Positions 21,161 to 55,052 are shown, counted from the stretch's first letter. The stretch is DNA of 64,000 nt from a bacterium (GCA_043725085.1 JAYSLY010000007.1:1471-65470), one strand, 5' to 3'. The notes: generated by a model not told the origin, from the letters alone. Numbers and translations: made by a program.

Positions 21161-24100
21161 ATGATCCAAATTACAAAGAAAACTGACGAGACAAAAAAAG
21201 AAACTGAGGCCATTTCCAGCAAATTAGTTTCCAAACTACAAAAGCAATCAGAAGAAGAACAAGTAGCTCAATTCGCGGCCAAGCTAGAGTTGCCCTATAT
21301 CGATACCAATATCGTCCCTGTTTCCATTGATAGTTTGAAATTAGTCGAGGAAAGCGACGCGCGAAAATTTAGCCTCGCTGTCATTCAAAAAAAGGCTAAA
21401 GTAGCTACCGTCGTAGTCACCGATCCAACCAGAGAGGATGTGCAGGAGTTTTTGAAGAATTTTTCCGAAAAATTTGGTTTCAAGGTAAAGCTTTTTGTTA
21501 TTTCCCCCTATAATCTTGAGCGGGTTTTGGAAAAATACAAAAAAATCGTCTTTACGGAAATCCTCGATCAACTAAGTCTCACAATTAAAGATGCGGAGCT
21601 TACTGATTTTAAATCAGCGCTTGAAAATTTACTCGTTCTCAAAGAAAGAATTAAAGAAATGCCGATCACGGAAGTGATGAATACGATTATGGCTGGAGCA
21701 TACACGCTTGGCGCTTCTGATGTGCACATTGAACCCGGAGAAAATGATTTTCGTTTGCGCTATCGTATTGACGGAGTTCTCCAAGATGTCGCTTTTTTTC
21801 CACTCAATATTCACAAGCGCATTGCCACTAGAATCAAAATGATGTCTGGCATGAAGCTTAATCTTGCAGACATGGCCCAAGATGGAACCTTTGAAATAAA
21901 CCTTGCCAACAAAACAATTGCTATCCGCGCTTCTTCCATTCCTGGCAATTATGGCGAATCGATTGTGATGCGGCTCCTTGATCCTGATTCCATTAATGTC
22001 AACATTGAAGAACTCGGTCTTCAGGGCCTAGCCTATGAAATTGTGCAAAAGCAAATTGAAGCGCCTAATGGCATGATTCTCACTACCGGACCAACCGGCT
22101 CGGGAAAAACCACAACACTCTATGCCATTATCAGCAAACTTAACACACCTGACAAAAAAATCATTACCATTGAAGACCCGATCGAATACCAACTTAAAGG
22201 CGTTTCCCAAACCCAAATCGAAAAAGCCCGCGGCTATACTTTTGCCACCGGCCTTCGCGCGATTGTTCGTCAGGACCCTGACATCATTTTGGTCGGTGAA
22301 ATCCGCGACGACGAGACAGCTGACATCGCCGTCAATTCCGCTCTCACAGGGCACCTCGTGCTTTCCACTTTTCACACCAACAGCGCCATAGCTTCAATTC
22401 CACGCCTCATTGAAATGGGCGTCAAACCTTCCTTTATCGCTCCGGCCGTAAATGCTATTATCGGTCAGCGTTTGGTGCGAAAACTTTGCTCTTGTCGAGA
22501 AGAATACGTCCCCGCCAGAGAAACAGTCGAGTCAATTAAAAAAATCCTTTCCATTATCTCCCCCCGCGCTAAGGTGGAAATTCCCAAAAATATCGACAAG
22601 CTCTATCGTCCAAAAGGTTGTCTCAAATGTGGAGGCACTGGCTACAAGGGTCGCATGGGCATCTTTGAGGTGCTCACGATCAGCCCGGAAACAGAAAAAA
22701 TGATTCTTGACCTCGCCGGTGAGACAGAAATCACCATGGCAGTGCTTGAAGAAGGCATGGTTACGATGCTTCAAGACGGAATTTTGAAAGCCGTGAGCGG
22801 CGTCACTTCCATTGATGAAGTGAAAAAAGTGACCGGGCAAGGAGAATTTTTGGAAGGTATCTATGAAAAGTTAATGGCTCAAACTCTCGGCAGCACGCTT
22901 CCGATTAAAAAAGAATTTTATGCTAAAACCTTGGGCAGCGTGGATGATTTTGCCAAAATGCAAACACTTCTCGCCGGGACGAAAATCGTTGACGCTATCA
23001 AAATTATTTTTTCCGCCGCGCAAATTTTAGGCGTAGGGGACATCCATATTGAACCGGAAAAAGAAGCAGTCAAAATCCGTTTTCGCATCGATGGAATCCT
23101 CCAAACTATTGCTTCACTTCCTCTCACAGAATACACAACCTTCCTCGGACAGATAAAAATGCTCAGTGGTGTCAAAACAGAAGCGCGCCAGGGCGTGATT
23201 GATAGTCGTTTTAGTATTACGTTTGACGACGAACTGACTGAACTCAAGGAAAAATCCGTTGATATTCGTGTTTCCATAATCTTGGGCGGCTTTGGCGAAA
23301 CAGTCGTGATGCGCCTTTTGAGCAAATCATCTGTCGAACTCAATTTGGATAAGCTGGGAATTCGCAAACAAAATTTGGAGAAAATCAAACATGAAATTTC
23401 AAAACCCAACGGCGTCGTGCTCAACACCGGACCAACCGGCTCAGGAAAAACCACCACGCTTTATGCAATTTTAAACCTGATCAAAAAGCCGGAAATTAAA
23501 ATCATCACAGTGGAAGATCCGATTGAATACCAAATGGAAGGCATTTTGCAAACTCCGGTCAGTGAAAAAGACGGCTATACTTTTTCCACCGCTCTGCGCG
23601 CCCTTCTGCGTCAAAATCCGGATATTATGATGATTGGTGAAATCCGTGACAATGAAACGGCGCAGATCGCCGTCCAAGCCGCGCTTACCGGGCATTTGGT
23701 ACTCTCAACACTTCATACAAACAACGCTTCTGGCGCCGTCGCCAGAATGCTCAATATGGGAGTCAAGCCGGAGGACATCGTTTCCGGCGTGAACGCCTTT
23801 ATCGCCCAACGCCTCGTGCGCACACTTTGCGAATGCAAAACTAAAGTTGCTCCGACTGAAGAAGAAAAACAAAAAATTGAAAAAGTCCTAAAAACTATCA
23901 GTCCAAAGGCCGGCGTAGAAATTCCGCAAATATCAGAAGTCTGCAAACCAAACGGCTGCAATAAATGTAACCACATTGGCTATAAAGGTCGCACAACCAT
24001 CAGTGAAATATTTTTGCTTTCCCGTGAAATCCAAGAAGCCGTCATGCACAATGCTGTCACATCAGAACTCAATCAAAAAGCCACTTCCGAAGGAATGATC

Positions 24101-24181
24101 TCAATGGCCCAAGACGGTGTTCTAAAAGTTTTGGAAGGCGAAACAACACTTGAGGAGGTGGAGCGGGTTACTGAAATATAG
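21161..24181 (+). CDS. tandem-duplicated PilB/GspE-family type II/IV secretion ATPase (two complete ATPase units in one 1006-aa polypeptide)
   Basis: Two Walker A sites TGPTGSGKTTTLYA, near nt 22090 and 23430. Two tetracysteine motifs (CSC...CLKCGG and CEC...CNKCNH). GspE N-terminal domain on the first unit only. Confidence 0.75.
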   Translation: MIQITKKTDETKKETEAISSKLVSKLQKQSEEEQVAQFAAKLELPYIDTNIVPVSIDSLKLVEESDARKFSLAVIQKKAKVATVVVTDPTREDVQEFLKNFSEKFGFKVKLFVISPYNLERVLEKYKKIVFTEILDQLSLTIKDAELTDFKSALENLLVLKERIKEMPITEVMNTIMAGAYTLGASDVHIEPGENDFRLRYRIDGVLQDVAFFPLNIHKRIATRIKMMSGMKLNLADMAQDGTFEINLANKTIAIRASSIPGNYGESIVMRLLDPDSINVNIEELGLQGLAYEIVQKQIEAPNGMILTTGPTGSGKTTTLYAIISKLNTPDKKIITIEDPIEYQLKGVSQTQIEKARGYTFATGLRAIVRQDPDIILVGEIRDDETADIAVNSALTGHLVLSTFHTNSAIASIPRLIEMGVKPSFIAPAVNAIIGQRLVRKLCSCREEYVPARETVESIKKILSIISPRAKVEIPKNIDKLYRPKGCLKCGGTGYKGRMGIFEVLTISPETEKMILDLAGETEITMAVLEEGMVTMLQDGILKAVSGVTSIDEVKKVTGQGEFLEGIYEKLMAQTLGSTLPIKKEFYAKTLGSVDDFAKMQTLLAGTKIVDAIKIIFSAAQILGVGDIHIEPEKEAVKIRFRIDGILQTIASLPLTEYTTFLGQIKMLSGVKTEARQGVIDSRFSITFDDELTELKEKSVDIRVSIILGGFGETVVMRLLSKSSVELNLDKLGIRKQNLEKIKHEISKPNGVVLNTGPTGSGKTTTLYAILNLIKKPEIKIITVEDPIEYQMEGILQTPVSEKDGYTFSTALRALLRQNPDIMMIGEIRDNETAQIAVQAALTGHLVLSTLHTNNASGAVARMLNMGVKPEDIVSGVNAFIAQRLVRTLCECKTKVAPTEEEKQKIEKVLKTISPKAGVEIPQISEVCKPNGCNKCNHIGYKGRTTISEIFLLSREIQEAVMHNAVTSELNQKATSEGMISMAQDGVLKVLEGETTLEEVERVTEI

Positions 24182-26332: not shown

Positions 26333-28399
26333 GTGAAAAATGAAAATATAAAAACAAAAATAAGTTTGTTTATATTCTTGCTTTTTTTAGCGGTGGCGTT
26401 TTTTTGTTTTGAGAAAAAATGTCTAGCCGAAAATAATGCCTTAGCCATCACAGAAATCATGTACTCCCCAACTGAAAATGAAGCTGGAGAAAAAGTAGAA
26501 TGGCTTGAATTATATGCCAATGCCGACAAAAATTTCATCTTGGGCTCAAACAAGCAACTAAAAAATTTTTATTTCTGCACAAAAAAAGGTTCCTCGGATA
26601 GCTCCTGTGCTGATAGTTCACATATTTTTGCAACATACGCTATCGATAGCAGTCTAGATATTAAAAAGGGTGATTTTATTATTGCAACAAAAAACCCGGA
26701 TGCTTTCAAAAATATCCCCGACGTCAAGATAATCAAAACATCTTCATCTTTCAATTTACTCTCTGATGAAAATGCCTTTATTGCTTACAGCGAAGACAAT
26801 AAAACCACTTGGAAAGAGCCGCTTAAATATGCTGAATTTTTTAGTAAAAAAGTTGCTGGATTTTCTTTAGAAAGAATTGATTTTAATAAAGATAATTCAA
26901 ACAGCAATTGGCAGGAAAGTTTTTGCCTTGGCGGATCCCTTGGTAAAGGAAGTACTCAACAAAAAGACTGCCCAAAAATTGAACCACTGCCACCCATTAA
27001 GCCGACAAGTAGCACCTATACTGGGAAGATAAAAATCAACGAAATTTTGCCGGCACCAAAAACCAAAAATGAGGAGAAAGAGTTTGTTGAACTGAAAAAT
27101 ATCTCGGATGAGAAGATTGATCTTTTTGGAATGTGGATTGAGGATGAAAAAAATCACAAAGTTTATTTCCCCGACGAAAAAATAGATCCCGGCAAACTCT
27201 ATTTTCTAGAAGGAAATTTCGAACTGAATAACACCACTCCCGACACAGCATTCCTCGTTGCCAAAAACGGCACCAAGGAAAAGCCAATTGATTCTGTACG
27301 CTATGAAAAACCCAAATATGACTACGCCTACGCCTGGAACGGCTCCGCTTGGCAATGGACAAGTAAAATTACCAAGGGAACAGAAAACGAATTTGATGAA
27401 ATACTTTCAGGAAAAATCAAAAAAGACAAAACAATCTATGCCGGAATATATGCCAACTTTGAAGTAAGGGCTGATGCTAAGGCTGAGCATTTCACTTGGG
27501 ATTTTGGCGACTCTCACAAGAGCTACCTCAAAAAAACTCGGCATAAATATGAAAAGGCCGGCACATATGATGCCACACTCAAAATCGCAGGGGAAGGTGA
27601 GGATAACTTACTCAGCTTTACCGTTGCAGTGGAAAAATATGGCAAAGCCAAGGTGCGCATCGTTTCACTCTCGCCCAATCCCAAAGGCCGTGACAGCGAA
27701 AACGAATGGATTGAAATTTTTAATAGCACCGAAAAGAAAATTAATCTCAAAAACTGGAGCGTTGCCACCGGCGCAAAAAATCTCTACAATCACCCGATCA
27801 CTAAAAATTTTATTTTCAAAGCCGGGGAGCAAAAAAAATTAACGCGCGATTTTTGCGCTTTTTCGCTGGGAAACAAACAAGCCAAAATTGAGTTGCGCTA
27901 TCCTAACGGAAAAGTGGCGGATAAAGTTAGATATGATCATGGAAATTCAATTTTAGAAGATGAACTGTATCAAAAAGAAGATAATATCTGGCAATGGACG
28001 GGAGGAACGCAAAAGACTCCAAAAGAAAATCAAACTGACACAGAGGCTGAAACACCAACTGAACCAGAAATCATCCTGGCAGATAGCGCACCAAAAAACG
28101 AGACCGATGAATCAAAAAAAGAGAATGTCGATTTTGATTTATCTGCTTTGGGGAAATATAGCGAGAATCCGACTTGGAGTGCCAAACAAAAAACACAAAC
28201 GATTTTACTTTTCGCCAACTCAAATATCAATCCCAAAAAATTTCTCGCAAAAAATCAAGGACAAGTTTTGGGGATTTTAACTGTGAAATATCCACAAACT
28301 GCCATGCCTTCAAAAAATTCTCGACAAGCATTGTTTTCATTGAAATATTTTTGGAAAATTATTAATCAAAAAATTAATTCATTTTTGAATAAATCATAA
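26333..28399 (+). CDS. secreted protein with three lamin-tail-domain (LTD) repeats and a PKD domain
   Basis: Signal peptide. ITEIMYSPTENEAGEKVEWLELYN, KINEILPAPKT...EFVELKN, SLSPNPKGRDSENEWIEIFN. PKD-like WDFGDSHKS...GTYDATL. Confidence 0.6.
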   Translation: MKNENIKTKISLFIFLLFLAVAFFCFEKKCLAENNALAITEIMYSPTENEAGEKVEWLELYANADKNFILGSNKQLKNFYFCTKKGSSDSSCADSSHIFATYAIDSSLDIKKGDFIIATKNPDAFKNIPDVKIIKTSSSFNLLSDENAFIAYSEDNKTTWKEPLKYAEFFSKKVAGFSLERIDFNKDNSNSNWQESFCLGGSLGKGSTQQKDCPKIEPLPPIKPTSSTYTGKIKINEILPAPKTKNEEKEFVELKNISDEKIDLFGMWIEDEKNHKVYFPDEKIDPGKLYFLEGNFELNNTTPDTAFLVAKNGTKEKPIDSVRYEKPKYDYAYAWNGSAWQWTSKITKGTENEFDEILSGKIKKDKTIYAGIYANFEVRADAKAEHFTWDFGDSHKSYLKKTRHKYEKAGTYDATLKIAGEGEDNLLSFTVAVEKYGKAKVRIVSLSPNPKGRDSENEWIEIFNSTEKKINLKNWSVATGAKNLYNHPITKNFIFKAGEQKKLTRDFCAFSLGNKQAKIELRYPNGKVADKVRYDHGNSILEDELYQKEDNIWQWTGGTQKTPKENQTDTEAETPTEPEIILADSAPKNETDESKKENVDFDLSALGKYSENPTWSAKQKTQTILLFANSNINPKKFLAKNQGQVLGILTVKYPQTAMPSKNSRQALFSLKYFWKIINQKINSFLNKS

Positions 28400-29779: not shown

Positions 29780-30445
29780 ATGAATGAAATTAATTTTAGC
29801 GTTAGTCCTATTTTGACATTTTTTCTCAATGAAGGAGTGCCGTTTGAAACAATCAAGCTAATCCTCATACTTCCAATTATTGCTACGCTCATCGCCTTCT
29901 TGCGCCAAGTAGTTGGAATCAAGGCTTTTGGCATCTACACTCCACTCTTAGTCACCTTTGCCTTTTTGGCAACTGACGGTTTGAAGTACGGTCTTTTGAT
30001 TTTTGCAATGATTATTCTTATTGGCATGCTGATGCGTATTGCGCTCAAATCCTTCCGCCTGCTCTATCTTCCGCGTGTAGCCATCATGCTCACTGTCGTA
30101 GCGCTTTCTATTCTGGTGATTTTGGCAATTAGTGGCAGTCTCAAGAGAACAGGCCTTGCCTCTGTTTCCATCTTCCCTATTCTCATTATGATTACTCTCG
30201 TGGAAAAATTCATCGCAGTGCAAATTGAAAAAGGTGACCGCGCCGCGATACTTCTTGCCACAGAGACCTTGATTATTTCGATCTTAGGCTTTTACATCGC
30301 TAGTTGGGAAACACTCATCCATTTTATTGCTTTTTATCCTTGGATTATTCTTCTCACTATTCCTTTTAATATTCTTTTGGGCAAATGGACGGGACTTCGC
30401 CTGAGTGAATATTTGCGTTTTGGGGAGATTATAAAAAGAAGCTAA
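29780..30445 (+). CDS. 7-TM membrane protein (7TM module of the alpha-L-glutamate-ligase-related cassette, without a transglutaminase-like domain)
   Basis: Seven hydrophobic helices in 221 aa. Lies 3 nt upstream of the ligase gene. Confidence 0.45.
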   Translation: MNEINFSVSPILTFFLNEGVPFETIKLILILPIIATLIAFLRQVVGIKAFGIYTPLLVTFAFLATDGLKYGLLIFAMIILIGMLMRIALKSFRLLYLPRVAIMLTVVALSILVILAISGSLKRTGLASVSIFPILIMITLVEKFIAVQIEKGDRAAILLATETLIISILGFYIASWETLIHFIAFYPWIILLTIPFNILLGKWTGLRLSEYLRFGEIIKRS

Positions 30446-30448
30446 GTT

Positions 30449-31882
30449 ATGTTTGAATTTACTAAAAAAAAATTTGCCTATTTGCCCTCTAGGCAGGCAC
30501 GTGGAATTTTAGGGATGAACTCCAGAAATTTGGACTACATCCGTCCCTATAATCGTACTCGCGCCAAACGCCTTGCGGACAACAAGCTGCTTAGCAAGAG
30601 GATTCTTAAAAAAAATGATATTGCTGTTCCAGCGCTCATTTCTCAAATCAAAACCCTGGAAGATTTGGATAATTTTGATTGGCAAAAATTACCGGATAGT
30701 TTTGTTTTGAAACCTAATCGCGGTTTTGGCGGCGAAGGCATTATCGTTGTTTATGGCAGAAAAAAGCACCGAGACGATGCGTGGGTAAAAGCCGATGGAT
30801 CAATTATCACAATTGATGATCTCAAGAATCACACCAGAAATATCTTAGACGGTTCATATTCTTTGTCCGGCATTCCCGACACGGCTTTTTTTGAGGAACG
30901 CTTGAAACTTTTGAAACTTTTCAAACCATACGCCTTTAAGGGCATCCCCGATATTCGTATCATCGTTTTTAATAAGATGCCGATTATGGCGATGCTTCGA
31001 CTTCCCACCAGAGAATCAAATGGAAAGGCTAACCTCGCGCAAGGGGCAATTGGCGTGGGAATCGACCTCGCCTCCGGCGTTACCACAACGGCGGTTTTGG
31101 GCAAACAAAAAATCATCGAATATCTTCCCGGCACAAGACTCTTACTCTCCGGTATTAAAATTCCCTATTGGCTGGATATCTTAAATTTAGCTGTTCGCTC
31201 ACAAGAAATTTCCGGTCTGGGGTTTCTTGGTGTAGACGTAGCAATCGATAAAGAGCGTGGGCCGGTCATCCTAGAGCTCAATGCTCGCCCGGGCTTGGCT
31301 ATTCAAATCGCCAATCTCGACGGGCTGAAATGGCGACTCAAGAAAGCCGCTGGCATTAAAATTAAAACGGCAAAAAAGGGCATCCGCGTCGGCATGGATC
31401 TTTTCGGAGGAGAAATCGAAGAAGAATTGGAGGAAATTTCCGGAAAAAAAGTGATCGGCACCGTCGAAAAAGTGAAGCTGCTTGGCAAAGACGGAAAAGA
31501 AATTGAAGTGGAGGCGAGAATCGATACCGGTGCAGGAATCTCGGCAATAGATAAGAAGCTAGCTCAAGAACTGGGCTTTAGTGAAGCAGTTAAACTATGG
31601 GAAGACCTTCATCTTGACAAAGTCTTTGACGAAGAAGAAATCAAAACGCTTAGCCAAAATGAAACATGGAAAAAGCTGGAAAAACACCCGGATATTGTCG
31701 GGGTAGCTAAAACTTTTTCTTCTCATGGCGCTACTTATCGGATTGAAATCAAGCTTTCAATAATTTTAGATAATCAAGAGATTGCTTCCAAACTTTCCAT
31801 TGCTAATCGTGAAGGATTAACTTATCCGGTTTTGGTTGGAAGGCGCGACTTAAGAAAATATTTAATTGATACAAGCAAATGA
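30449..31882 (+). CDS. alpha-L-glutamate-ligase-related ATP-grasp enzyme fused to a C-terminal retropepsin-like (RimB / 'putative ATP-dependent zinc protease' family) domain
   Basis: N-terminal ILGMNSRNLDYIRPYNRTRAKRLADNKLLSK. C-terminal domain with IDTGAGISAI (D-T-G-A). Confidence 0.55.
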   Translation: MFEFTKKKFAYLPSRQARGILGMNSRNLDYIRPYNRTRAKRLADNKLLSKRILKKNDIAVPALISQIKTLEDLDNFDWQKLPDSFVLKPNRGFGGEGIIVVYGRKKHRDDAWVKADGSIITIDDLKNHTRNILDGSYSLSGIPDTAFFEERLKLLKLFKPYAFKGIPDIRIIVFNKMPIMAMLRLPTRESNGKANLAQGAIGVGIDLASGVTTTAVLGKQKIIEYLPGTRLLLSGIKIPYWLDILNLAVRSQEISGLGFLGVDVAIDKERGPVILELNARPGLAIQIANLDGLKWRLKKAAGIKIKTAKKGIRVGMDLFGGEIEEELEEISGKKVIGTVEKVKLLGKDGKEIEVEARIDTGAGISAIDKKLAQELGFSEAVKLWEDLHLDKVFDEEEIKTLSQNETWKKLEKHPDIVGVAKTFSSHGATYRIEIKLSIILDNQEIASKLSIANREGLTYPVLVGRRDLRKYLIDTSK

Positions 31883-32787
31883 AAACGATTTTAACCCTAT
31901 ACAGTCAACCGTTTCCGCAAACAATGCTCAAAGTTTCAGAAGATTTTTATGCTTACGCAAATAAAAATGGACTAATAATTTGCCGGGGTTTTATCATAGA
32001 CTTTGACCCTAAAAAGGGCGCCTTCAAAAAGGCGCTGTTCTTTGAGAATAAAAAATGGATTTGGGAAAAAAACATTAAACCGGATTTCATCCACGATCGT
32101 TCATTACATTACCAAAAAGAGCCAAATCTTTCTTTAAAAAAAATCATTGAAGCAACTTTTCCTTTTTTCAATCACATCGAACTAAGCGAGATAATGACTA
32201 ATAAATGGAGTACCTATAAAAACTTTAAAAAATATTCTCCCAAATTAGTCAAAATTGAAAAAGAATCCGACCTAAAAAAACTCGCCCTACTTTCTTCAAA
32301 CAGAATTATTCTCAAGCCCATTCACGGCTCTGGCGGAATGGGCATTAAAATAGTTGCAAAAAATAGTCCGACAGAAATGCCATATCCCTTTCTTGCCCAA
32401 GAATTAATTGAAACTAATGGCTACAAGAACTGGGCTTTGGGAGCTCACGACTTTCGAGTCATGGTAATTAATGAACGCCCCTTCCACTCATTCTTAAGAA
32501 TCCCTCCTCAAGGTAAACTAATCGCCAATCTTGCTCAAGGAGGCAAAATAAAACTAATTAATCTAAAAGAGCTGCCAGACAGCATTCATACTATTTTAAA
32601 GTACGCTTCTAAAAAATTTGCTAGATTCGAAAAAAAAATGTATGCGATTGACTTCATCTTTGACAAAAATGAACGCCCATGGATAATTGAACTAAACTCT
32701 CGTCCAGGAATCGCACTGGAAAAAGAAGAATTGCCTGTTCGAATCGATTATTATAATAATTTGATAAATTTTTATCTAAGCTTATGA
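31879..32787 (+). CDS. ATP-grasp family ligase
   Basis: KPIHGSGGMGI, DFRVMVINERP, RIPPQGKLIANLAQGG. ATGA overlap with the upstream gene. Confidence 0.5.
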   Translation: MKTILTLYSQPFPQTMLKVSEDFYAYANKNGLIICRGFIIDFDPKKGAFKKALFFENKKWIWEKNIKPDFIHDRSLHYQKEPNLSLKKIIEATFPFFNHIELSEIMTNKWSTYKNFKKYSPKLVKIEKESDLKKLALLSSNRIILKPIHGSGGMGIKIVAKNSPTEMPYPFLAQELIETNGYKNWALGAHDFRVMVINERPFHSFLRIPPQGKLIANLAQGGKIKLINLKELPDSIHTILKYASKKFARFEKKMYAIDFIFDKNERPWIIELNSRPGIALEKEELPVRIDYYNNLINFYLSL

Positions 32788-33695
32788 AAATCTGCGTAAT
32801 ATCTTCTCATTTTGGCTTGCATGCGCCGACGAGAATAATAGAGGAGGGCAAAAAACGAGGGCACGAAATGCACCTAACAACCTGGGAAGACTTACGCATT
32901 GACATTTCAAACGATCATTTTTATCTTGGAGATGAACAAAAATCCCTAAGCGAATTTGATGCTATCATTCCTCGTAGTGACCGCTATAACCTACGATTAT
33001 CCCCGCAAAAAAGAGTAACGAAAAATATGAATACGCTCTTTAGATTGACACTCGAATATGCCAGAAAAAATAATATTTTCTTTCTAAATAGTGTTTATTT
33101 TTCTTCTTACCAGAGTCTAGATAAGATGGCGCAACAGTTTTTTTTCTTCCAAAACAATTTGCCCGGGATCAACACGTCTTACTTTTCTTCTCCTGAAAAT
33201 TTTGAAAAGAAATTAAAAACTTTCCCCATTGTTGCCAAGGTCGCTGAAGGTAGTACTGGCACTAGCGTGTTCAAATTAAATAACCCGACTGAACTGGCAT
33301 CCTTCATTGATGATCGCAATACTGATGGAAGTTTTTTCATTTTTCAAAAATTCCACAAAATAAAAAATGACTACCGCGTACTAGTTGTCGGAAAAAAAGT
33401 CTTAGGCATAATGAAGCGCTTGCCAAAAAATGGAGAATGGCGAACCAATTTTTCCCTGGGAGGAGATGTATTAGCAGAAAAAAATGATCCGGAAATGATA
33501 AAGCTATCCTTAGATATAGCAAAAAAAATGGGTTTTGATTATGTTGGCATTGATCTGCTTAAAGACGGCGGTCGTTTGCACATTATTGAGACCAACTCAC
33601 TGCCCCAATTTAAGGGCTTCGAGAAAGCCTTCCCAAAAATTAACGTTGCCCAAGAATTAATTAAATTGGTTGAAAAAAACGCAACTAAAAAATAA
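32784..33695 (+). CDS. RimK-type ATP-grasp ligase
   Basis: DYRVLVVGKKVLGIMKRLPKNGEWRTNFSLGG matches the RimK motif. ATGA overlap with the upstream gene. Confidence 0.55.
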   Translation: MKICVISSHFGLHAPTRIIEEGKKRGHEMHLTTWEDLRIDISNDHFYLGDEQKSLSEFDAIIPRSDRYNLRLSPQKRVTKNMNTLFRLTLEYARKNNIFFLNSVYFSSYQSLDKMAQQFFFFQNNLPGINTSYFSSPENFEKKLKTFPIVAKVAEGSTGTSVFKLNNPTELASFIDDRNTDGSFFIFQKFHKIKNDYRVLVVGKKVLGIMKRLPKNGEWRTNFSLGGDVLAEKNDPEMIKLSLDIAKKMGFDYVGIDLLKDGGRLHIIETNSLPQFKGFEKAFPKINVAQELIKLVEKNATKK

Positions 33696-36372: not shown

Positions 36373-36654
36373 TTATTTCATTTTAATATTCTCCACCCCA
36401 TCTTCCCCAAGCTCTTCGTTTATTTTCTGAATAATTCGCGCTTTATTTGTCCAAAGTTCGGCCGACCAAGCGCTGTTTTGAGCCCTGACAAATAAGATTC
36501 GCTTGGCAAAATAGTCTGGAGTAAATTTAGATTTACCAATTTGGCCAAATTCTTCTTCAATCACCTTTTTGAACACAAAAAAAACAGTCTTGTCATCAAG
36601 GATCTGTTTTTTTTGTAATTTCCTGCCACTTAAAATATCTCCAAGCGCCTTCAT
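36373..36654 (-). CDS. DUF721 (DciA-like) protein
   Basis: LFVRAQNSAWSAELWTNKARIIQKINEELG. Position immediately downstream of dnaN. Confidence 0.55.
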   Translation of the reverse strand: MKALGDILSGRKLQKKQILDDKTVFFVFKKVIEEEFGQIGKSKFTPDYFAKRILFVRAQNSAWSAELWTNKARIIQKINEELGEDGVENIKMK

Positions 36655-36665
36655 ATTTTTAACCT

Positions 36666-37826
36666 CTAATTCTTTATTGGCATAATAATATAGGTAAAAT
36701 CAGCCAAAACCTCTTTTGTGCCCTCAGAAAATTCGCGAATTGCCACTGGAGAGGAATCACTATTGGCCAGCAATGCTAATTTATTTGTCGTCACCACATT
36801 AATCCCGTCCACTAAATATTTCAAGTTAAAAACAATTTCTTGAGACTCACCTTGAACCTCAAAATTGATTTGTGTGGAGTTTTCACCCACCTCTGCACTC
36901 TTAGTGTCAACCAAGATATTTTTTCCTTCTGCGTCAATTTTTAAAACAACTTCGCTGGATTTATTATTCACAAAAACCCCGGCAATTTTTAGAGCATTTT
37001 GCAGGACTTTTCTATCCCCAATAATAGTTGTTTTATAACTCTCCGGCATAATGTGTTTATATTCCGGATATTTCCCATTAATAAGCCGTGAAACTATTTT
37101 TATTCCATCCAACTCAAAAAAAATCTGACCCTCTTCAATAAATACTTTCACCGTATTATCTTCTGAATTATTAGAAATAATGCGATTTAACTCAGAAAGT
37201 GTGCTGATTGGCACGATAATATTTTTAGTTTTTTCCCTAAACTCCAAATATTTTTCACTATTCACCTCATTTTCCCCTATTTTTAAAATATATTCAGAAA
37301 GTCTAAAACCATCTGTCGCCGCAAAAAATAACTCCTTTTCTCCAAAAACAATATTCATTCCGGTCAATTCTTGTCTTGCTTCATTATGCGCAACAGCAAT
37401 AAGAATTTTAGAGAAAATATCTTTCAACTTACTAATTCCAATATTTAGGATAAATTCAGTGTTTTTTTGTGGAATTAAAGGAAAATCTTCCGCAGAAAAA
37501 CCCTTAATCATCGCTTTTGTAGAGCCATTTTTTATCTTTAGGTTTTGATCTATTACCTCAATATCCATATTTTCCCCTTCAGTTAAATTAGCAGAGAAAC
37601 TACTTAAAAGCCTCGCAGGAATCGTAATTCTCCCCTCCTCTTCCACTTTCGCGCCAATTTTCACTTCAATTCCAATTTCCAAGTTTGTGGCAGATATTTT
37701 CAAATAACCCTTATTCGCTTCTAAGAGGATGTTGTTTAAAATTGGCAATGTATTTTGCTTAGAAACAATTCTTTCTGAATTGATAATCGCTTTTTTAAAG
37801 TTATCCTGAGTGCAAATTAATTTCAT
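36666..37826 (-). CDS. dnaN: DNA polymerase III beta sliding clamp
   Basis: MKLICTQDNFKKAIINSERIVSKQNTLPILNNILLEA. Confidence 0.9.
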   Translation of the reverse strand: MKLICTQDNFKKAIINSERIVSKQNTLPILNNILLEANKGYLKISATNLEIGIEVKIGAKVEEEGRITIPARLLSSFSANLTEGENMDIEVIDQNLKIKNGSTKAMIKGFSAEDFPLIPQKNTEFILNIGISKLKDIFSKILIAVAHNEARQELTGMNIVFGEKELFFAATDGFRLSEYILKIGENEVNSEKYLEFREKTKNIIVPISTLSELNRIISNNSEDNTVKVFIEEGQIFFELDGIKIVSRLINGKYPEYKHIMPESYKTTIIGDRKVLQNALKIAGVFVNNKSSEVVLKIDAEGKNILVDTKSAEVGENSTQINFEVQGESQEIVFNLKYLVDGINVVTTNKLALLANSDSSPVAIREFSEGTKEVLADFTYIIMPIKN

Positions 37827-38104
37827 AGTATTATTATTTTATTAATTAATTATAAAGAAACTTATTACTATTATTATAAATTAAACTTTTGTGGATAATT
37901 GAGATATAGAGCTAAGATGAGGGATAAATAGTGGAGATAATCTGTGGATAACCCTCATCTGAGTTGCTGGATAAACCATTAGTGTTATTGGGTTGGTGAG
38001 GAAAAGCTTTTGGCTTACTAAGATAATAAACAGGAAAAACTTATAATTAAGCAGGGTTTTTAGCCTCTTTACAACACCTTATCCACAACTTATACGCATT
38101 TAAC
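37827..38104. other. candidate oriC: an AT-rich unwinding region plus three perfect and several degenerate DnaA boxes between dnaA and dnaN
   Basis: TGTGGATAA at 37890-37898 and 37943-37951. TTATCCACA at 38079-38087. Degenerate TGGAGATAA and TGGATAAAC. AT tract 37827-37885. Confidence 0.6.
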
Positions 38105-39490
38105 CTAATCTATCTTATATAATTGTTCGCGAATCTGGCTAATTTCTTCTGATAATTTCTCATCGCTCATAAGACTTTTGGAAATTTTTTCAAAAGCATG
38201 GATGGCGGTGGTGTGATCGCGACCACCTAATTTCTCTCCTATTCCAGGGTAAGAAAATTGAAGCTCGCTGCGCATAAGGTACATAGCAACTTGTCGAGGC
38301 CGTACAACTTCTTTTTTGCGATTTTTTAGAACTAAATCCTCGAGGGTGATGTCATAGAATGAAGAAATAGCTTTTAATATTTGCTTGTACGTGATACCTT
38401 TCTTTTTTCCGCTGGAAATTAATTCAGAGAGTTGGTTTCTAGTAAAATCAAGCGTAATCTCCTTTTTAGTGAGTTGGGCTGAAACAATTAGTCGGTTAAG
38501 CGCACCTTCTAGTTCGCGAATATTGTTTTTGATGTTTGCGGCAATAAAATTAAGCGCTTCTTGGCTGATTTCCAGATTTTCATCGGCGACTTTCTTTTGG
38601 AGGATGGCAATTCTTGTTTCAAGATCGGGTTTAGAAACATCAGCAATCATCCCACCCTCAAAACGTGAGCGCAATCTTTCTTCAAGGATTTGGATTGCTT
38701 TTGGCGGGCGATCACTACTAAGCACGATTTGTTTATTGAGTTGATAGAGGTAGTTGAAAATATGGAAAAATTCTTCTTGGGTTTTTTCTTTGCCGGAAAT
38801 AAACTGGATATCATCGATAATTAGGATGTCAATTTTTTGATAGTATTCCTTAAATTCATTGATTTTTTGTTCCTGGAGGGAGTTGATTAGCTCCGTGGTA
38901 AACCTTTCTGAGGTGATGTATTTTACCTTGTAATTAGGATCTTTGCGCAAGATTTCATTGCCAATAGATTGGATTAGGTGGGTTTTCCCAAGACCAACTC
39001 CACCATAAATGAAGAGGGGGTTGTAGATTTTACCTAAATTTTGAGAAACAGCCACGCAGGCCGCATGAGCAAGCTCATTATTTCCACCAACAATGAAATT
39101 TTCAAAAACGTATTTGGGGTTAAGATTATTTTCGAGGTTTACTGTGAAAGTTTTCCTTTCTTGGTTTTTTGGATTATTATAATTTTGCGGGGCAACAATT
39201 GCGTCTACCATCGGCTCTCTCCTCAACGGCCTAAGTGGTTCTTTTGGCGTGGCAATCACACAAGAAACTGTTTTTATATTCGAATCAATGTTTTTAAGTG
39301 CTTTTAGGATATAGGCGTTGTATTTGTTTTCCAGCCATTCTTTAGCAAAGCCATTGGGCACACTAATAATAATAACCCCGTCAATATTAGAAATAATCTC
39401 GGTATTTTTAAACCAAGTGATAAAATTCGCCTTAGAAATGAAAAGCTCTATTTCACTGAGGGCTGTTTGCCAAAGTTCTTCGCTCTGCAT
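38105..39490 (-). CDS. dnaA: chromosomal replication initiator DnaA
   Basis: NPLFIYGGVGLGKTHLIQSIGNE plus a C-terminal HTH. Confidence 0.9.
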   Translation of the reverse strand: MQSEELWQTALSEIELFISKANFITWFKNTEIISNIDGVIIISVPNGFAKEWLENKYNAYILKALKNIDSNIKTVSCVIATPKEPLRPLRREPMVDAIVAPQNYNNPKNQERKTFTVNLENNLNPKYVFENFIVGGNNELAHAACVAVSQNLGKIYNPLFIYGGVGLGKTHLIQSIGNEILRKDPNYKVKYITSERFTTELINSLQEQKINEFKEYYQKIDILIIDDIQFISGKEKTQEEFFHIFNYLYQLNKQIVLSSDRPPKAIQILEERLRSRFEGGMIADVSKPDLETRIAILQKKVADENLEISQEALNFIAANIKNNIRELEGALNRLIVSAQLTKKEITLDFTRNQLSELISSGKKKGITYKQILKAISSFYDITLEDLVLKNRKKEVVRPRQVAMYLMRSELQFSYPGIGEKLGGRDHTTAIHAFEKISKSLMSDEKLSEEISQIREQLYKID

Positions 39491-53761: not shown

Positions 53762-54420
53762 TTCGTAAGATAAATAATATACGCGTCTAGGAATATTATA
53801 ACAAAAATACTCATAAAATACGAATAGAAAAATGATTTTGTTTTGTAGGCAAGAAATCCTGCGGTGACTGAGAGTAGGACAAGTGAGGCTGATTGCCAAG
53901 AAAGGGCTTTAGTAAAAAAAAGTAGCGTGAAAAATAGAATTGCTTGCACAGCAATTGCCCAATGTTTGAATTTTTTTTGCAAAACAGAAAGGAGAAAGCC
54001 TTGGAAGAAAAAACTGGAAGCAAAAACTGTGAAATTGACGATTAATAATTCATAGGCTAAAAATAGCCAAAAATTGTTTTTTATGTAATCTGATAATGTG
54101 TAGTTAGCCTTAAATTGGGTGTAATTTAGCATTAAATACAGTAAAAAAAGTGTAAAAAGTGCGGTGATTGCTCCCCAAGCCAGAGAAGTTATTGGATTTT
54201 TCAGATTGCAGCCAAAATCGGCGAGATCTTTTTTCAGAATAATTTTTACATAAGCAATCGGGAGAAGAATGAGAAAAAATAAGTTTTTTGTGATAGTTTG
54301 TACGGAGTTTTGGGTGGGAAAAACAGCGCTGGAGAAAAGACAAATGAGCGCCAGACCAAAACCGACCAGCAGTTCTTGGTTATCTTTCAAAAAATTTCGT
54401 GGTGTTTTTTGGCGGTACAT
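53758..54420 (-). CDS. polytopic membrane protein, possibly a CPBP/Abi-family-like intramembrane protease with degenerate motifs
   Basis: Six to seven TM helices. YELLIVN...FQGFLL and FKHWAIAVQ. Confidence 0.3.
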   Translation of the reverse strand: MYRQKTPRNFLKDNQELLVGFGLALICLFSSAVFPTQNSVQTITKNLFFLILLPIAYVKIILKKDLADFGCNLKNPITSLAWGAITALFTLFLLYLMLNYTQFKANYTLSDYIKNNFWLFLAYELLIVNFTVFASSFFFQGFLLSVLQKKFKHWAIAVQAILFFTLLFFTKALSWQSASLVLLSVTAGFLAYKTKSFFYSYFMSIFVIIFLDAYIIYLTK

Positions 54421-54436
54421 ATAAGTTAATGCTGCG

Positions 54437-55006
54437 CTAGTCTTGGTAGGCGTAGGCAGCTGTCATTCGGGCGGCTTCTCTTTGTTCTTCTGCGGCGGCT
54501 TCTCTTCTGTTTTTTAGGATTAAAATAAAAATAACAAATGTCGTGATTGTTTCCAGGGGAAGAAAGTCTATGATAGGCAGCATTTCAAGAACGGTGCCGG
54601 CAATGAGAACTTTCCATTTATCAGGAGTAAAAATACTTTTTATCATGGATCTTTTCTTGCTTTGGCGCAACCCGGCACCGCAAAGAAGCATAGCCGCCCA
54701 GGTAATAATTCCGGCCATAAAGGCTGTAACTACGCCAAGAAGCTGTAGGCCAGGAACGGCATTTGCGACAAAATCGACAATGTCTTTCAGGAGAGAGCTC
54801 ATTATGGCAATGGCAAAAAAGAAATCTGTGAGCTGGATAAATTTTCTAAGATGTTCGGTGTCGGTAACTTCGGCTTCTCTGGCGATTTCATTGGCTAGTT
54901 TTCCTAGACTCTTTTTTTGCTTATTAACTTCAAGCTCTCTCTTTTTTTCTGCATCAGCCGCTCTTTGCGCCTCTAGGCGTTGTTGGTTTTCTTCTTCTTT
55001 TGACAT
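54437..55006 (-). CDS. membrane protein with a charged coiled-coil N-terminus (possible T4SS accessory component)
   Basis: N-terminal EENQQRLEAQRAADAEKKRELE, then three TM helices. Confidence 0.35.
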   Translation of the reverse strand: MSKEEENQQRLEAQRAADAEKKRELEVNKQKKSLGKLANEIAREAEVTDTEHLRKFIQLTDFFFAIAIMSSLLKDIVDFVANAVPGLQLLGVVTAFMAGIITWAAMLLCGAGLRQSKKRSMIKSIFTPDKWKVLIAGTVLEMLPIIDFLPLETITTFVIFILILKNRREAAAEEQREAARMTAAYAYQD

Positions 55007-55009
55007 ATC

Positions 55010-55045
55010 GCATAATTTGAAATTTCAAATTTCAAATTTAAAATT
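55010..55045. repeat. AT-rich palindromic repeat (copy B)
   Basis: aatttgaaatttcaaatttcaaatttaaaatt immediately upstream of the ATG at 55006. Confidence 0.45.
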
Positions 55046-55052
55046 ATGGAGC

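What the first reader, a model, noticed from the sequence alone, without database searches (positions are those of the whole stretch)
29780..33695. Four-gene operon: 7TM membrane protein plus three consecutive ATP-grasp ligases, the first fused to a retropepsin-like (RimB-type) domain
The genes are translationally coupled: a 3-nt gap at 30445/30449, and ATGA stop/start overlaps at 31879-31882 and 32784-32787.
- Gene 1 has seven predicted TM helices. It lacks the transglutaminase-like domain that usually rides on this 7TM module.
- Gene 2 opens with ILGMNSRNLDYIRPYN, the alpha-L-glutamate-ligase-related ATP-grasp family. It ends in a ~140-aa domain carrying IDTGAG, a D-T-G-A aspartic-protease signature.
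- Gene 3 is an ATP-grasp enzyme (KPIHGSGGMGI, DFRVMVIN).
- Gene 4 carries the RimK motif DYRVLVVG...GEWRTNFSLGG.

RimK adds poly-Glu tails to ribosomal protein S6, and RimB-like proteins modulate it. The 7TM/ligase/RimB-like cassette is known from genome context only, and its function is unknown.

This variant, with three ligases and a ligase-protease fusion, looks like an uncharacterised system. It could build or trim an amino-acid or peptide tail on a protein or membrane-associated substrate.
Basis: partly seen in the sequence, partly recalled or inferred. Interest (0 to 1): 0.75.

Follow-up and report, generated by a model that had tools for sequence, protein, structure and literature searches.

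The report
Compact Rlo-like ligase–protease membrane module
A candidate-phyla-radiation (Moranbacteria-like) bacterium carries a stripped-down, fused version of the recently described Rlo system: a seven-helix membrane protein, an amino-acid ligase welded to a retrovirus-type protease, and two extra ligases. It probably builds and trims an acidic peptide chain at the membrane, and what that chain is attached to is unknown.

Summary
The fusion's C-terminal domain has a retropepsin fold. Its closest solved structures are RloA2 and DUF785, and the DTG motif and Glu-binding arginines are intact.

The interpretation needs two corrections.
- The cassette is no longer known from context only. It is the RloABC system of Pseudomonas (2025): RloA cleaves poly-Glu, and loss of RloB or RloC suppresses loss of RloA.
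- The conserved unit is the two-gene core (7TM + fusion), adjacent in 52 of 52 Patescibacteria loci. Genes 3 and 4 belong to a lineage-variable array of 0-3 accessory ATP-grasp ligases, mixed elsewhere with glycosyltransferases, YdjC, MATCAP, GNAT and Mur-ligase-like genes. Some of these are fused to the core in other lineages.

Most likely it is a membrane-docked, template-free ligase/peptidase machine that makes and trims an acidic peptide on an unknown, probably envelope-related acceptor. It is a new variant of a known kind and is uncharacterised in CPR bacteria. Interest is moderate.

The parts
29780..30445 (+). Gene 1: stand-alone 7TM membrane protein (RloB-like 7TM module without the periplasmic inactive-transglutaminase domain). 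Predicted topology is N-out/C-in, with a conserved cytoplasmic C-terminal helix G-x-R-x-x-E-x-x-R-F.
   Evidence: PF14402 E=3.7e-33; NF052267 RloB positions 312-507 only. Hydropathy and charge bias. AF2 secondary structure shows 7 long helices, but pLDDT is only 52.9. Orthologues are 71-94% identical and all ~215-224 aa. P32, G46, G71, P187, E210, R213 and F214 are invariant in 55 sequences, including proteobacterial 7TM-ATP-grasp fusions.
30449..31882 (+). Gene 2: fusion protein, an RloC-type ATP-grasp ligase followed by a retropepsin-like aspartic peptidase. No signal peptide or TM segment, so it is cytoplasmic.
   Evidence: More than 120 clusters at >=66% identity in Moranbacteria. 54 genome loci at 42-79% identity.
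30491..31354 (+). ATP-grasp domain of gene 2 (residues ~15-302; PF14397 / TIGR02291 type). K88, D168, R170, N195, D263, E276 and N278 are invariant.
   Evidence: PF14397 229 bits; TIGR02291 303.6 bits. Residue conservation is 55/55.
31403..31447 (+). Invariant acidic segment FGGEIEEELEEISGK (residues 319-333) between the ligase and protease domains.
   Evidence: Identical in all 55 orthologues down to 42% overall identity, apart from I/V/L, S/T and K/R at three positions. The wider family keeps an amphipathic pattern LFGGE-[IV]-E-x-E-[ILV]-E-x-[IL]-[ST]-G-K. pLDDT <50 in the isolated-domain model.
31451..31861 (+). Retropepsin-like (RloA/DUF785-type, PF05618) domain of gene 2 (residues ~335-471). 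Catalytic D359 lies in DTGA (nt 31523-31534). R357, R431 and R454 correspond to the poly-Glu-binding K46, R114 and R137 of RloA. The motif VGRRD is at residues 463-467.
31879..32787 (+). Gene 3: divergent accessory ATP-grasp ligase with no specific family (YheCD/ATPgrasp_ST/RimK-like). It shares the K-x-x-A-N-L-A-Q-G-G motif with gene 2; the Mg/ATP residues (K, D, E, N) are present.
   Evidence: Orthologue cluster found in 16 of 54 loci.
32784..33695 (+). Gene 4: RimK-family accessory ATP-grasp ligase (Rimk_N + RimK domains). It scores below the RimK-family and S6-ligase equivalog cut-offs.
   Evidence: PF08443 4.5e-27; PF18030 1e-9; TIGR00768 129.6 (cut-off 143.4); PRK10446 72.5 (cut-off 331). 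Best PDB match is Pseudomonas RimK 7qys, 1.2e-21, with motifs aligned. Orthologue cluster found in 20 of 54 loci.

Best explanation
This is the Patescibacteria version of the Rlo (RloB-RloC-RloA) module, reduced and fused.

- The 7TM protein is the membrane subunit. It has lost the extracytoplasmic inactive-transglutaminase domain.
- The RloC-type ATP-grasp ligase docks on it at the cytoplasmic face. It extends the carboxyl end of an acceptor with amino acids through acyl-phosphate chemistry, most likely an alpha-linked, Glu-rich acidic chain.
- The retropepsin domain is fused in cis. It would dimerise and cut such acidic chains, setting their length, recycling them or generating primers.
- Genes 3 and 4 are accessory ligases. 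They add priming or further residues and differ between lineages, so the product is lineage-specific.
- The acceptor is unknown. Context points to an envelope-associated glycan or peptide rather than the ribosome.

Shown: gene structure, domain identities, intact catalytic residues, retropepsin fold, strict 7TM-fusion linkage, and Rosetta-stone fusions.

Inferred by homology: Glu-type ligation and cleavage of acidic chains.

Inferred from Pseudomonas genetics: the ligase and 7TM make something that must be trimmed.

Speculative: the nature of the acceptor, export by the 7TM protein, and the roles of genes 3 and 4.
For: - Domain assignments and near-threshold TIGR02291 membership.
- 7TM + fusion are adjacent in 52/52 loci that have upstream DNA, across 42-79% identity.
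- 7TM-ATP-grasp single-chain fusions exist (P0252; P0261, the latter with a transglutaminase core), which places the ligase at the cytoplasmic C-terminus of the 7TM. The family-wide invariant C-terminal motif E210/R213/F214 lies exactly there.
- Retropepsin fold, closest to RloA2 and DUF785.
- D359-T-G is invariant. The counterparts of the RloA poly-Glu-coordinating K46, R114 and R137 are retained: K/R in 55/55, R/K in 53/55 and R in 51/55 (residue roles from PMC12239564).
- All ATP/Mg residues of the ligase are invariant. Genes 3 and 4 keep the K/D/E/N set.
- RloA and RimB cleave poly-Glu; deletion of rloB or rloC suppresses the triple rloA deletion (PMC12239564). The RimBK hybrid is an active protease, and RimB stimulates RimK (PMC11957791).
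- 44 of 52 loci have 1-3 accessory ATP-grasp genes directly after the fusion gene.
- An accessory ~500-aa ATP-grasp, a YdjC and a MATCAP that are neighbours in some loci are fused to the core protein in others.
- The tight coupling is unusual for this window.
Against: - No biochemical data exist for any member of the PF14397/TIGR02291 ligase family. Glu specificity is by analogy only.
- The product of RloBC is unknown even in Pseudomonas.
- In Pseudomonas the protease is secreted, whereas here it must be cytoplasmic, so the logic of the pathway may differ.
- The 7TM model was too poor (pLDDT 52.9) to say whether it is a transporter.
- Orthologues of genes 3 and 4 are absent from many loci. The variable region also picks up unrelated genes (AbiEii toxin, CDF transporter, S41 protease), so some neighbours may be passengers.
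- Conserved synteny yebC-ruvC-[module]-PBP1a near the origin could partly reflect genome architecture rather than function.
Confidence: 0.5

Rival explanations
1. A RimK/RimB-type ribosome-modification system. [quoted passage not shown] The 7TM protein would only regulate or localise the enzymes.
For: - Gene 4 has Rimk_N + RimK domains, and its best solved relative is Pseudomonas RimK.
- The protease domain is cytoplasmic, like RimB.
- RimB-RimK hybrids exist (PMC11957791).
Against: - Gene 4 scores 72.5 bits against the S6-ligase equivalog cut-off of 331, and falls below the RimK-family cut-off.
- The gene-4 type is missing from 34 of 54 loci, while the 7TM + fusion core is always present.
- The fused ligase is RloC-type, not RimK-type.
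- The invariant partner is a membrane protein.
- rpsF is not in the window, so its C-terminus could not be checked.
Confidence: 0.12
2. A sugar-linked pathway. The ligases amidate a sugar carboxylate or amine of an envelope glycopolymer or peptidoglycan precursor with amino acids (teichuronopeptide-like or capsule-like decoration). The 7TM protein acts as the flippase or scaffold.
For: - Pfam calls the ligase family 'sugar-transfer associated'.
- The variable region holds GT4 and GT2 glycosyltransferases, a YdjC carbohydrate deacetylase, a GNAT and a Mur-ligase-like gene.
- YdjC is fused to the core protein in P0123.
- PBP1a lies downstream in about 38 loci.
- Rlo mutants in Pseudomonas and Shewanella have envelope phenotypes.
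Against: - This window has no glycosyltransferase or YdjC gene in the operon.
- The retained Glu-binding arginines and the peptidase partners (retropepsin, MATCAP) point to a peptide chain rather than a single amino acid on a sugar.
- Adjacency to PBP1a may be synteny only.
Confidence: 0.2
3. Only genes 1 and 2 form a system. Genes 3 and 4 are functionally unrelated ATP-grasp enzymes that sit in an insertion-prone gap between the core and PBP1a.
For: - Content of the gap is variable, including obviously unrelated genes: AbiEii, a cation-efflux protein and tyrS.
- Gene-3-type and gene-4-type genes are only 25-57% identical to their counterparts in other loci.
Against: - ATGA start/stop overlaps link gene 2 to gene 3 and gene 3 to gene 4, and they are unique in the window.
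- 44/52 loci place 1-3 ATP-grasp genes immediately after the fusion gene on the same strand.
- One accessory ligase type is fused to the core in P0148 (E~1e-90).
Confidence: 0.1
4. A cytosolic small-molecule pathway: glutamylation of a cofactor or synthesis of an acidic osmolyte or oligopeptide, as with MptN, CofF or N-acetylglutaminylglutamine synthetase. This would fit the osmotic phenotype of Rlo mutants.
For: - RimK-family members do glutamylate cofactors. There are weak sub-threshold hits to MptN, CofF and LysX.
- Rlo is named for osmotic-stress tolerance.
Against: - All those hits are far below their cut-offs.
- The obligate membrane partner and the endopeptidase domain, which in RloA needs at least 8 Glu, do not fit a small-molecule product.
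- The operon has no precursor-peptide ORF and no space for one.
Confidence: 0.06

Closest known systems
RloABC operon of Pseudomonas aeruginosa / P. fluorescens (Lormand et al., mBio 2025, PMC12239564; structures 9g58, 9g59)
   Same: The same three modules occur together: a PF14402 7TM protein, a TIGR02291/PF14397-type ATP-grasp ligase, and a PF05618 retropepsin-like peptidase with DTG and the conserved basic residues that bind poly-Glu. The protease domain's nearest solved structures are RloA2 and DUF785.
   Different: - The 7TM protein lacks the periplasmic inactive-transglutaminase domain.
- The peptidase has no signal peptide. It is fused to the C-terminus of the ligase, so it is cytoplasmic rather than secreted.
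- Gene order is 7TM, ligase-protease.
- One to three extra ATP-grasp ligases follow.
- The host is a Patescibacterium, whereas RloB was reported as 96% proteobacterial.
RimABK / RimBK (RimK poly-alpha-L-glutamate ligase with the RimB retropepsin; hybrid DP2392 of Desulfotalea psychrophila; PMC11957791, PMC4741518)
   Same: A cytoplasmic ATP-grasp Glu ligase is paired, or fused, with a retropepsin that cuts poly-Glu. Gene 4 belongs to the RimK family. This gives a precedent that a ligase-protease hybrid is catalytically active.
   Different: - Domain order is reversed: here ligase then protease, in RimBK protease then ligase.
- The fused ligase is RloC-type, not RimK-type.
- There is an obligate 7TM partner.
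- Gene 4 does not reach the S6-ligase equivalog score.
- The S6 substrate is untested.
Tubulin tyrosine ligase (TTL, an ATP-grasp) and the MATCAP carboxypeptidase cycle (e.g. PMC13269789)
   Same: A ligase and a peptidase act antagonistically on an acidic C-terminal tail. Relatives of gene 2 carry a MATCAP (PF08014) domain, and gene 3 has a weak TTL-family hit.
   Different: That cycle is a eukaryotic cytoskeletal system. In this window the peptidase is a retropepsin, not MATCAP. This is an analogy of logic, not membership.
Cyanophycin synthetase CphA1 (ATP-grasp + Mur-ligase-like + cryptic hydrolytic primer-generating site; PMC9262961)
   Same: It is a template-free polyamino-acid synthetase that combines an ATP-grasp ligase with an in-cis hydrolase that cuts the polymer into primers. 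Some related loci add a Mur-ligase-like gene.
   Different: There is no sequence relationship beyond the ATP-grasp superfamily. The hydrolase fold is different, and CphA1 has no membrane partner.

Membership tests
RloABC system | RloB-type 7TM module (PF14402) | tested here: met
   E=3.7e-33, 115.5 bits against a cut-off of 25.
RloABC system | N-terminal periplasmic inactive transglutaminase domain on RloB | tested here: not met
   The protein is 221 aa and matches only positions 312-507 of the RloB model. The upstream gene ends 43 nt before the start codon. All close orthologues are 215-224 aa.
RloABC system | RloC-type ATP-grasp (alpha-L-glutamate-ligase-like, TIGR02291 / PF14397) | tested here: inconclusive
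   PF14397 scores 229 bits (cut-off 31.4), clearly met. TIGR02291 scores 303.6 bits against a cut-off of 314.2, just below. That RloC itself belongs to these models was not checked directly.
RloABC system | RloA-type retropepsin with DTG and basic substrate-channel residues | tested here: met
RloABC system | Protease is secreted (N-terminal signal peptide) | tested here: not met
   The domain is C-terminal to a cytoplasmic ligase. There is no hydrophobic segment in gene 2: maximum 19-residue hydropathy is 1.4.
RloABC system | Role in hypo-osmotic tolerance, cell shape and antibiotic tolerance | not testable with these tools
   Requires genetics in the organism or a surrogate host.
RimK (ribosomal protein S6--L-glutamate ligase) | Score above the equivalog or family cut-off | tested here: not met
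   Gene 4: PRK10446 72.5 bits against 331; TIGR00768 129.6 against 143.4. Genes 2 and 3 score far lower.
RimK (ribosomal protein S6--L-glutamate ligase) | Pre-ATP-grasp + RimK ATP-grasp domains with the K, D-x-R, R-x-N and D/E/N residues | tested here: met
   Gene 4: PF18030 + PF08443. Motifs align to Pseudomonas RimK 7qys.
RimK (ribosomal protein S6--L-glutamate ligase) | S6 substrate ending in Glu-Glu | not testable with these tools
   rpsF is not in the window.
RimBK hybrid | N-terminal RimB domain fused to a C-terminal RimK | tested here: not met
   The order here is ligase (residues 15-302) then protease (335-471), and the ligase is PF14397-type (PMC11957791).
Clan AA retropepsin-like peptidases (PF05618/DUF785 branch) | Retropepsin fold with hydrophobic-hydrophobic-D-T/S-G-A and a C-terminal hydrophobic-G-R-D/N motif | tested here: met
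Clan AA retropepsin-like peptidases (PF05618/DUF785 branch) | Active as a homodimer, each chain giving one Asp | not tested
Anti-phage defence systems (PADLOC) | Any of the four proteins matches a defence model | tested here: not met
   No hits at E<=0.01.

The most novel reading that the evidence does not exclude
The 7TM + ligase-protease core, together with its lineage-variable train of ATP-grasp ligases (and glycosyltransferase, YdjC, MATCAP and Mur-ligase-like add-ons), is a template-free assembly line. It builds a lineage-specific acidic peptide or glycopeptide that the 7TM protein delivers to the cell surface of CPR bacteria. This would be a previously unrecognised envelope polymer of these episymbionts, diversifying like a surface antigen. 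A sub-variant of this reading is that the invariant EIEEELEE segment is a self-cleavage or pseudo-substrate site, so that the enzyme matures or is regulated like a retroviral polyprotein.
Probability: 0.2. Interest if true: 0.75.

Novelty: new variant of a known kind. Interest (0 to 1): 0.5.

Why it matters
The molecular product of the Rlo system is still unknown, even though it affects osmotic tolerance, cell shape, biofilm formation and antibiotic tolerance in Pseudomonas. The CPR variant offers natural experiments that narrow the possibilities.
- The protease can work in the cytoplasm, in cis with the ligase.
- The extracytoplasmic transglutaminase domain is dispensable.
- The retropepsin can be replaced by a MATCAP carboxypeptidase.
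- The core recruits extra ligases and sugar-modifying enzymes.

The two core genes are also retained, at 60-90% identity, next to the replication origin in very small genomes. This argues for an important role in organisms whose envelope biology is almost unexplored. A soluble single-chain ligase-protease is a convenient target for biochemistry.

Tried and rejected
- **AF2 model of the 7TM protein.** Mean pLDDT was 52.9 with a shallow alignment (71-94% identity), too poor for a fold search, so none was run.
- **Sequence search of the gene-2 ligase domain against the PDB.** No hit at E<=1e-3. The family profile found only a marginal Ddl match at 0.0036.
- **rpsF in the window.** Absent, so the S6-tail test was impossible. 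The only acidic-tailed ORF is a VirB4/TraG-like ATPase.
- **Rfam scan of the whole window.** Nothing found.
- **PADLOC.** Nothing found.
- **Iyer et al. 2009 (PMC3268129).** This paper first described these ATP-grasp contexts, but it is not held. What I say about it rests on citations in other papers and on my own memory.
- **Cluster look-up for the source organism.** It gave no name. The Moranbacteria assignment rests on the names of the closest homologues.
- **The acidic linker as a poly-Glu cleavage site.** I considered this and kept it only as a speculation. The wider family conserves the hydrophobic spacing more than the acidity, and RloA needs at least 8 uninterrupted Glu.
- **Promoter and terminator scan.** Uninformative: consensus-like sites occur throughout, and there is no clear terminator inside the operon.

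Full report
**1. Observation**

The junctions read TAA-GTT-ATG and two ATGA overlaps. In a greedy gene set for the window (59 genes, 46 same-strand neighbour pairs), these are the only two 4-nt overlaps. Only 10 of the 46 pairs are closer than 11 nt, so three tight junctions in a row are not the genome's default. No convincing terminator lies inside the block.

The closest homologues are all named Candidatus Moranbacteria, Moraniibacteriota or Patescibacteria. The window runs ruvB, a bPH_2 membrane protein, an LTD+PKD protein, yebC, ruvC, the four genes, PBP1a, then dciA-dnaN-dnaA on the other strand. The cumulative GC-skew minimum is near 38 kb. The locus is therefore about 4 kb from the replication origin.

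**2. What the four proteins are**

Gene 1 (221 aa):
- It matches PF14402 (E=3.7e-33) and only the last 196 positions of the NCBIfam RloB model. The transglutaminase part is absent and there is no space for it.
- Hydropathy, charge bias (12 K/R inside against 4 outside for an N-out/C-in topology) and the helices of a low-confidence AF2 model all fit seven TM helices followed by a cytoplasmic amphipathic helix.

Gene 2 (477 aa):
- Residues 26-299 are a PF14397 ATP-grasp (E=7e-68). TIGR02291 'alpha-L-glutamate ligase-like' scores 303.6 bits, just under its cut-off of 314.2.
- Residues 335-471 match PF05618 (30.3 bits, cut-off 27) and the RloA3 model (1.2e-9).
- It has no hydrophobic segment, so it is cytoplasmic.

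Gene 3 is an ATP-grasp with no specific family; its best hits are YheCD 4e-13, ATPgrasp_ST 4e-10 and RimK 1e-7.

Gene 4 has the Rimk_N and RimK domains. Its best solved relative is Pseudomonas RimK (7qys, 1.2e-21). It still falls below the RimK-family cut-off (129.6 against 143.4) and far below the S6-ligase equivalog cut-off (72.5 against 331).

All three ligases keep the ATP-binding Lys, the D-x-R motif and the D/E/N magnesium ligands (alignments; for gene 2).

**3. The decisive fold test**

An AF2 model of residues 318-477 has mean pLDDT 83.9; only the first 18 residues are disordered.
- Foldseek against the PDB returns 42 hits at E<=1e-3. Every one is a retropepsin-type protease: Ddi1 RVP, RloA 9g58, RloA2 9g59, Lpg0085/DUF785 2pma, Rickettsia APRc, or a retroviral protease.
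- A family profile finds RloA (8.8e-6) and RloA2 (2.3e-4) as the only solved sequence relatives of this domain.

In the residue-level alignment to RloA, the DTGA motifs coincide. The three conserved basic residues that the Rlo paper shows are needed for poly-Glu binding and cleavage (K46, R114, R137) correspond to R357, R431 and R454 of gene 2.

Across 55 orthologues:
- D359 and G361 are invariant.
- Position 357 is always K or R.
- Position 431 is R or K in 53.
- Position 454 is R in 51.

The domain is therefore a predicted active retropepsin built for acidic substrates.

**4. What is already known**

The 7TM/ATP-grasp/retropepsin cassette is the RloABC operon of Pseudomonas (PMC12239564).
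- RloA proteases are secreted retropepsins that cleave runs of at least 8 Glu.
- The triple rloA mutant is sensitive to hypo-osmotic conditions, misshapen and biofilm-defective.
- Deleting rloB (7TM with inactive transglutaminase) or rloC (ATP-grasp) suppresses these defects.
- The product of RloBC is unknown.

The related cytoplasmic RimK/RimB pair makes and trims poly-alpha-Glu on ribosomal protein S6. A natural RimB-RimK hybrid is proteolytically active (PMC11957791).

No paper that I could find treats the Patescibacteria form.

**5. Comparative genomics**

Fusion distribution. The fusion has more than 120 clusters at >=66% identity. An exhaustive HMMER search of 1.84 billion representatives gives 433 proteins at E<=1e-30. 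Dozens of these are 50%-identity clusters of the same ~470-aa architecture.

The conserved core. In 54 species-level genomes (42-79% identity), the 7TM gene lies immediately upstream of the fusion gene in all 52 loci that contain upstream DNA. ruvC precedes it in 48 loci, and PBP1a follows within a few kb in about 38. The 7TM protein is the most conserved component, up to 90% identical where the fusion is 74% and the gene-4 type 29%.

The variable region. Between the fusion gene and PBP1a the content varies.
- Directly after the fusion gene, 21 loci have one ATP-grasp gene, 15 have two (as in this window), 8 have three and 8 have none.
- These ligases fall into more than ten sequence clusters. 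The gene-3 type occurs in 16 loci and the gene-4 type in 20.
- Only L012 has close counterparts of both genes 3 and 4 in the same order (50% and 57% identity).
- Other genes in the gap are GT4 and GT2 glycosyltransferases, a Mur-ligase-like protein, YdjC, a MATCAP-like peptidase and a GNAT. There are also clear passengers such as an AbiEii toxin, a cation-efflux protein and tyrS.

**6. Rosetta-stone fusions**

Elsewhere, the core domains are found joined in single proteins.
- The 7TM module is fused N-terminally to the ATP-grasp (P0252; P0261, the latter with a transglutaminase core).
- The ligase-retropepsin protein is extended by a MATCAP metallocarboxypeptidase (about 800 aa, many clusters), by a second ATP-grasp (P0148), or by YdjC (P0123).
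- The extra ATP-grasp of P0148 is a full-length homologue (E~1e-90) of the ~500-aa accessory ligase that follows the fusion gene in loci L033-L046.
- The YdjC of P0123 matches the third downstream gene of L008 (42% identity), and the MATCAP matches a gene in L005.

These fusions argue that at least part of the variable array works with the core.

In many MATCAP-bearing proteins the retropepsin motif has decayed (IDTSRR, INLNQA, IDPGQE). This looks like displacement of one peptidase by another, which implies that a peptidase activity is an essential half of the module.

The 7TM family's only universally invariant residues outside glycines and prolines lie in the cytoplasmic C-terminal helix (E210, R213, F214), at exactly the point where the ligase is attached in the fusions.

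**7. Mechanism**

Putting this together, I read the locus as a compact Rlo-like machine.
- The 7TM protein holds the RloC-type ligase at the inner face of the membrane.
- The ligase adds amino acids, most likely Glu by analogy with RimK and given the specificity of the attached protease, to a carboxyl terminus.
- The in-cis retropepsin, as a dimer, cuts the acidic chain. This would control its length or recycle or prime it, as RimB stimulates RimK and as the cryptic hydrolase of cyanophycin synthetase makes primers (PMC9262961).
- Genes 3 and 4 add priming or further residues and give lineage-specific products.

The TTL/MATCAP cycle on tubulin tails (PMC13269789) is an analogy for a ligase and a peptidase working against each other on an acidic C-terminus.

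How firm each step is:
- Shown: the anatomy, conservation, fold and residues.
- Inferred: the chemistry.
- Speculative: the acceptor and any export.

The envelope is favoured over the ribosome as the target. The reasons are the obligate membrane partner, the sugar-enzyme associations and the envelope phenotypes of Rlo mutants in Pseudomonas and Shewanella. A RimK-like action of gene 4 on S6 cannot be excluded, because rpsF lies outside the window.

**8. Noted feature: the acidic inter-domain segment**

The segment FGGEIEEELEE[IVL][ST]G[KR] between the two domains is identical in all 55 orthologues, even at 42% overall identity. This makes it the best-conserved stretch of the protein.

More distant relatives keep the spacing of its hydrophobic residues more than its acidity. 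A structured amphipathic helix is therefore the conservative reading. A pseudo-substrate or self-cleavage site for the Glu-directed protease is an attractive but untested alternative.

**9. Verdict**

This is a new variant of a known kind. It differs from RloABC in having a transglutaminase-less 7TM protein, a ligase-protease fusion in the opposite order to RimBK, a cytoplasmic protease, and accessory ligases. It is widespread in Moranbacteria and neighbouring Patescibacteria, and nobody has studied it.

Interest is moderate (0.5). It is not a surprise in kind, but it is a useful handle on the unknown product of the Rlo system and on CPR envelope biology.

Noticed in passing
window 31403-31447 (gene 2 residues 319-333): The acidic inter-domain segment FGGEIEEELEEISGK is invariant in all 55 orthologues down to 42% overall identity, making it better conserved than either catalytic domain. 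It may be a docking helix, a pseudo-substrate or a self-cleavage site for the Glu-directed protease.
   Followed up: partly
related proteins P0128, P0135, P0141, P0143, P0152, P0156, P0158, P0160, P0165 (one search hits, ~780-815 aa): Relatives of gene 2 carry a C-terminal MATCAP (PF08014) metallocarboxypeptidase domain. In many of them the retropepsin DTG motif has decayed (IDTSRR, INLNQA, IDPGQE), which suggests one peptidase has displaced the other within the same scaffold.
   Followed up: partly
window 36373-39490 (- strand) and GC-skew profile: dciA (36373-36654), dnaN (36666-37826) and dnaA (38105-39490) lie just downstream, and the cumulative GC skew reaches its minimum near 38 kb. The replication origin is therefore next to the locus. 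The synteny yebC-ruvC-[module]-PBP1a is conserved across Patescibacteria.
   Followed up: partly
window 21161-24181 (+): A 1006-aa protein contains two tandem T2SSE (PilB/GspE-type) secretion ATPase modules in one chain (PF00437, two stretches, E=5.5e-227).
   Followed up: no
window 26333-28399 (+): A 688-aa predicted surface protein has two lamin-tail domains and a PKD domain. Parts of it recur upstream of yebC in many of the related loci.
   Followed up: no
window 50885-56897 (- strand): A 1004-aa ORF with no Pfam match (50885-53899) lies near a VirB4/TraG-like P-loop ATPase (55053-56897) that ends in ...KKEFSEEE. This is the only acidic C-terminal tail among the window's ORFs. The region may encode a type-IV-secretion or competence-like apparatus.
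   Followed up: no
L005 12444-13163; L026 10779-13357; L033-L053 downstream genes: The gap between the fusion gene and PBP1a also collects clearly unrelated genes in other genomes: an AbiEii toxin, an S41 protease, a cation-efflux protein, and tyrS on the opposite strand. It behaves as an insertion-tolerant site, which is a caution for guilt-by-association arguments.
   Followed up: partly
window 1-64000: No Rfam family reaches its gathering score anywhere in the 64 kb. That means no tRNA, rRNA, riboswitch or RNase P/tmRNA gene in this stretch.
   Followed up: no
window 32017-32036 (inside gene 3): A G+C-rich 8-bp-stem hairpin (GGCGCCTT-CAAA-AAGGCGCT) scores as terminator-like on both strands within the coding region of gene 3. 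It is probably coincidental.
   Followed up: no
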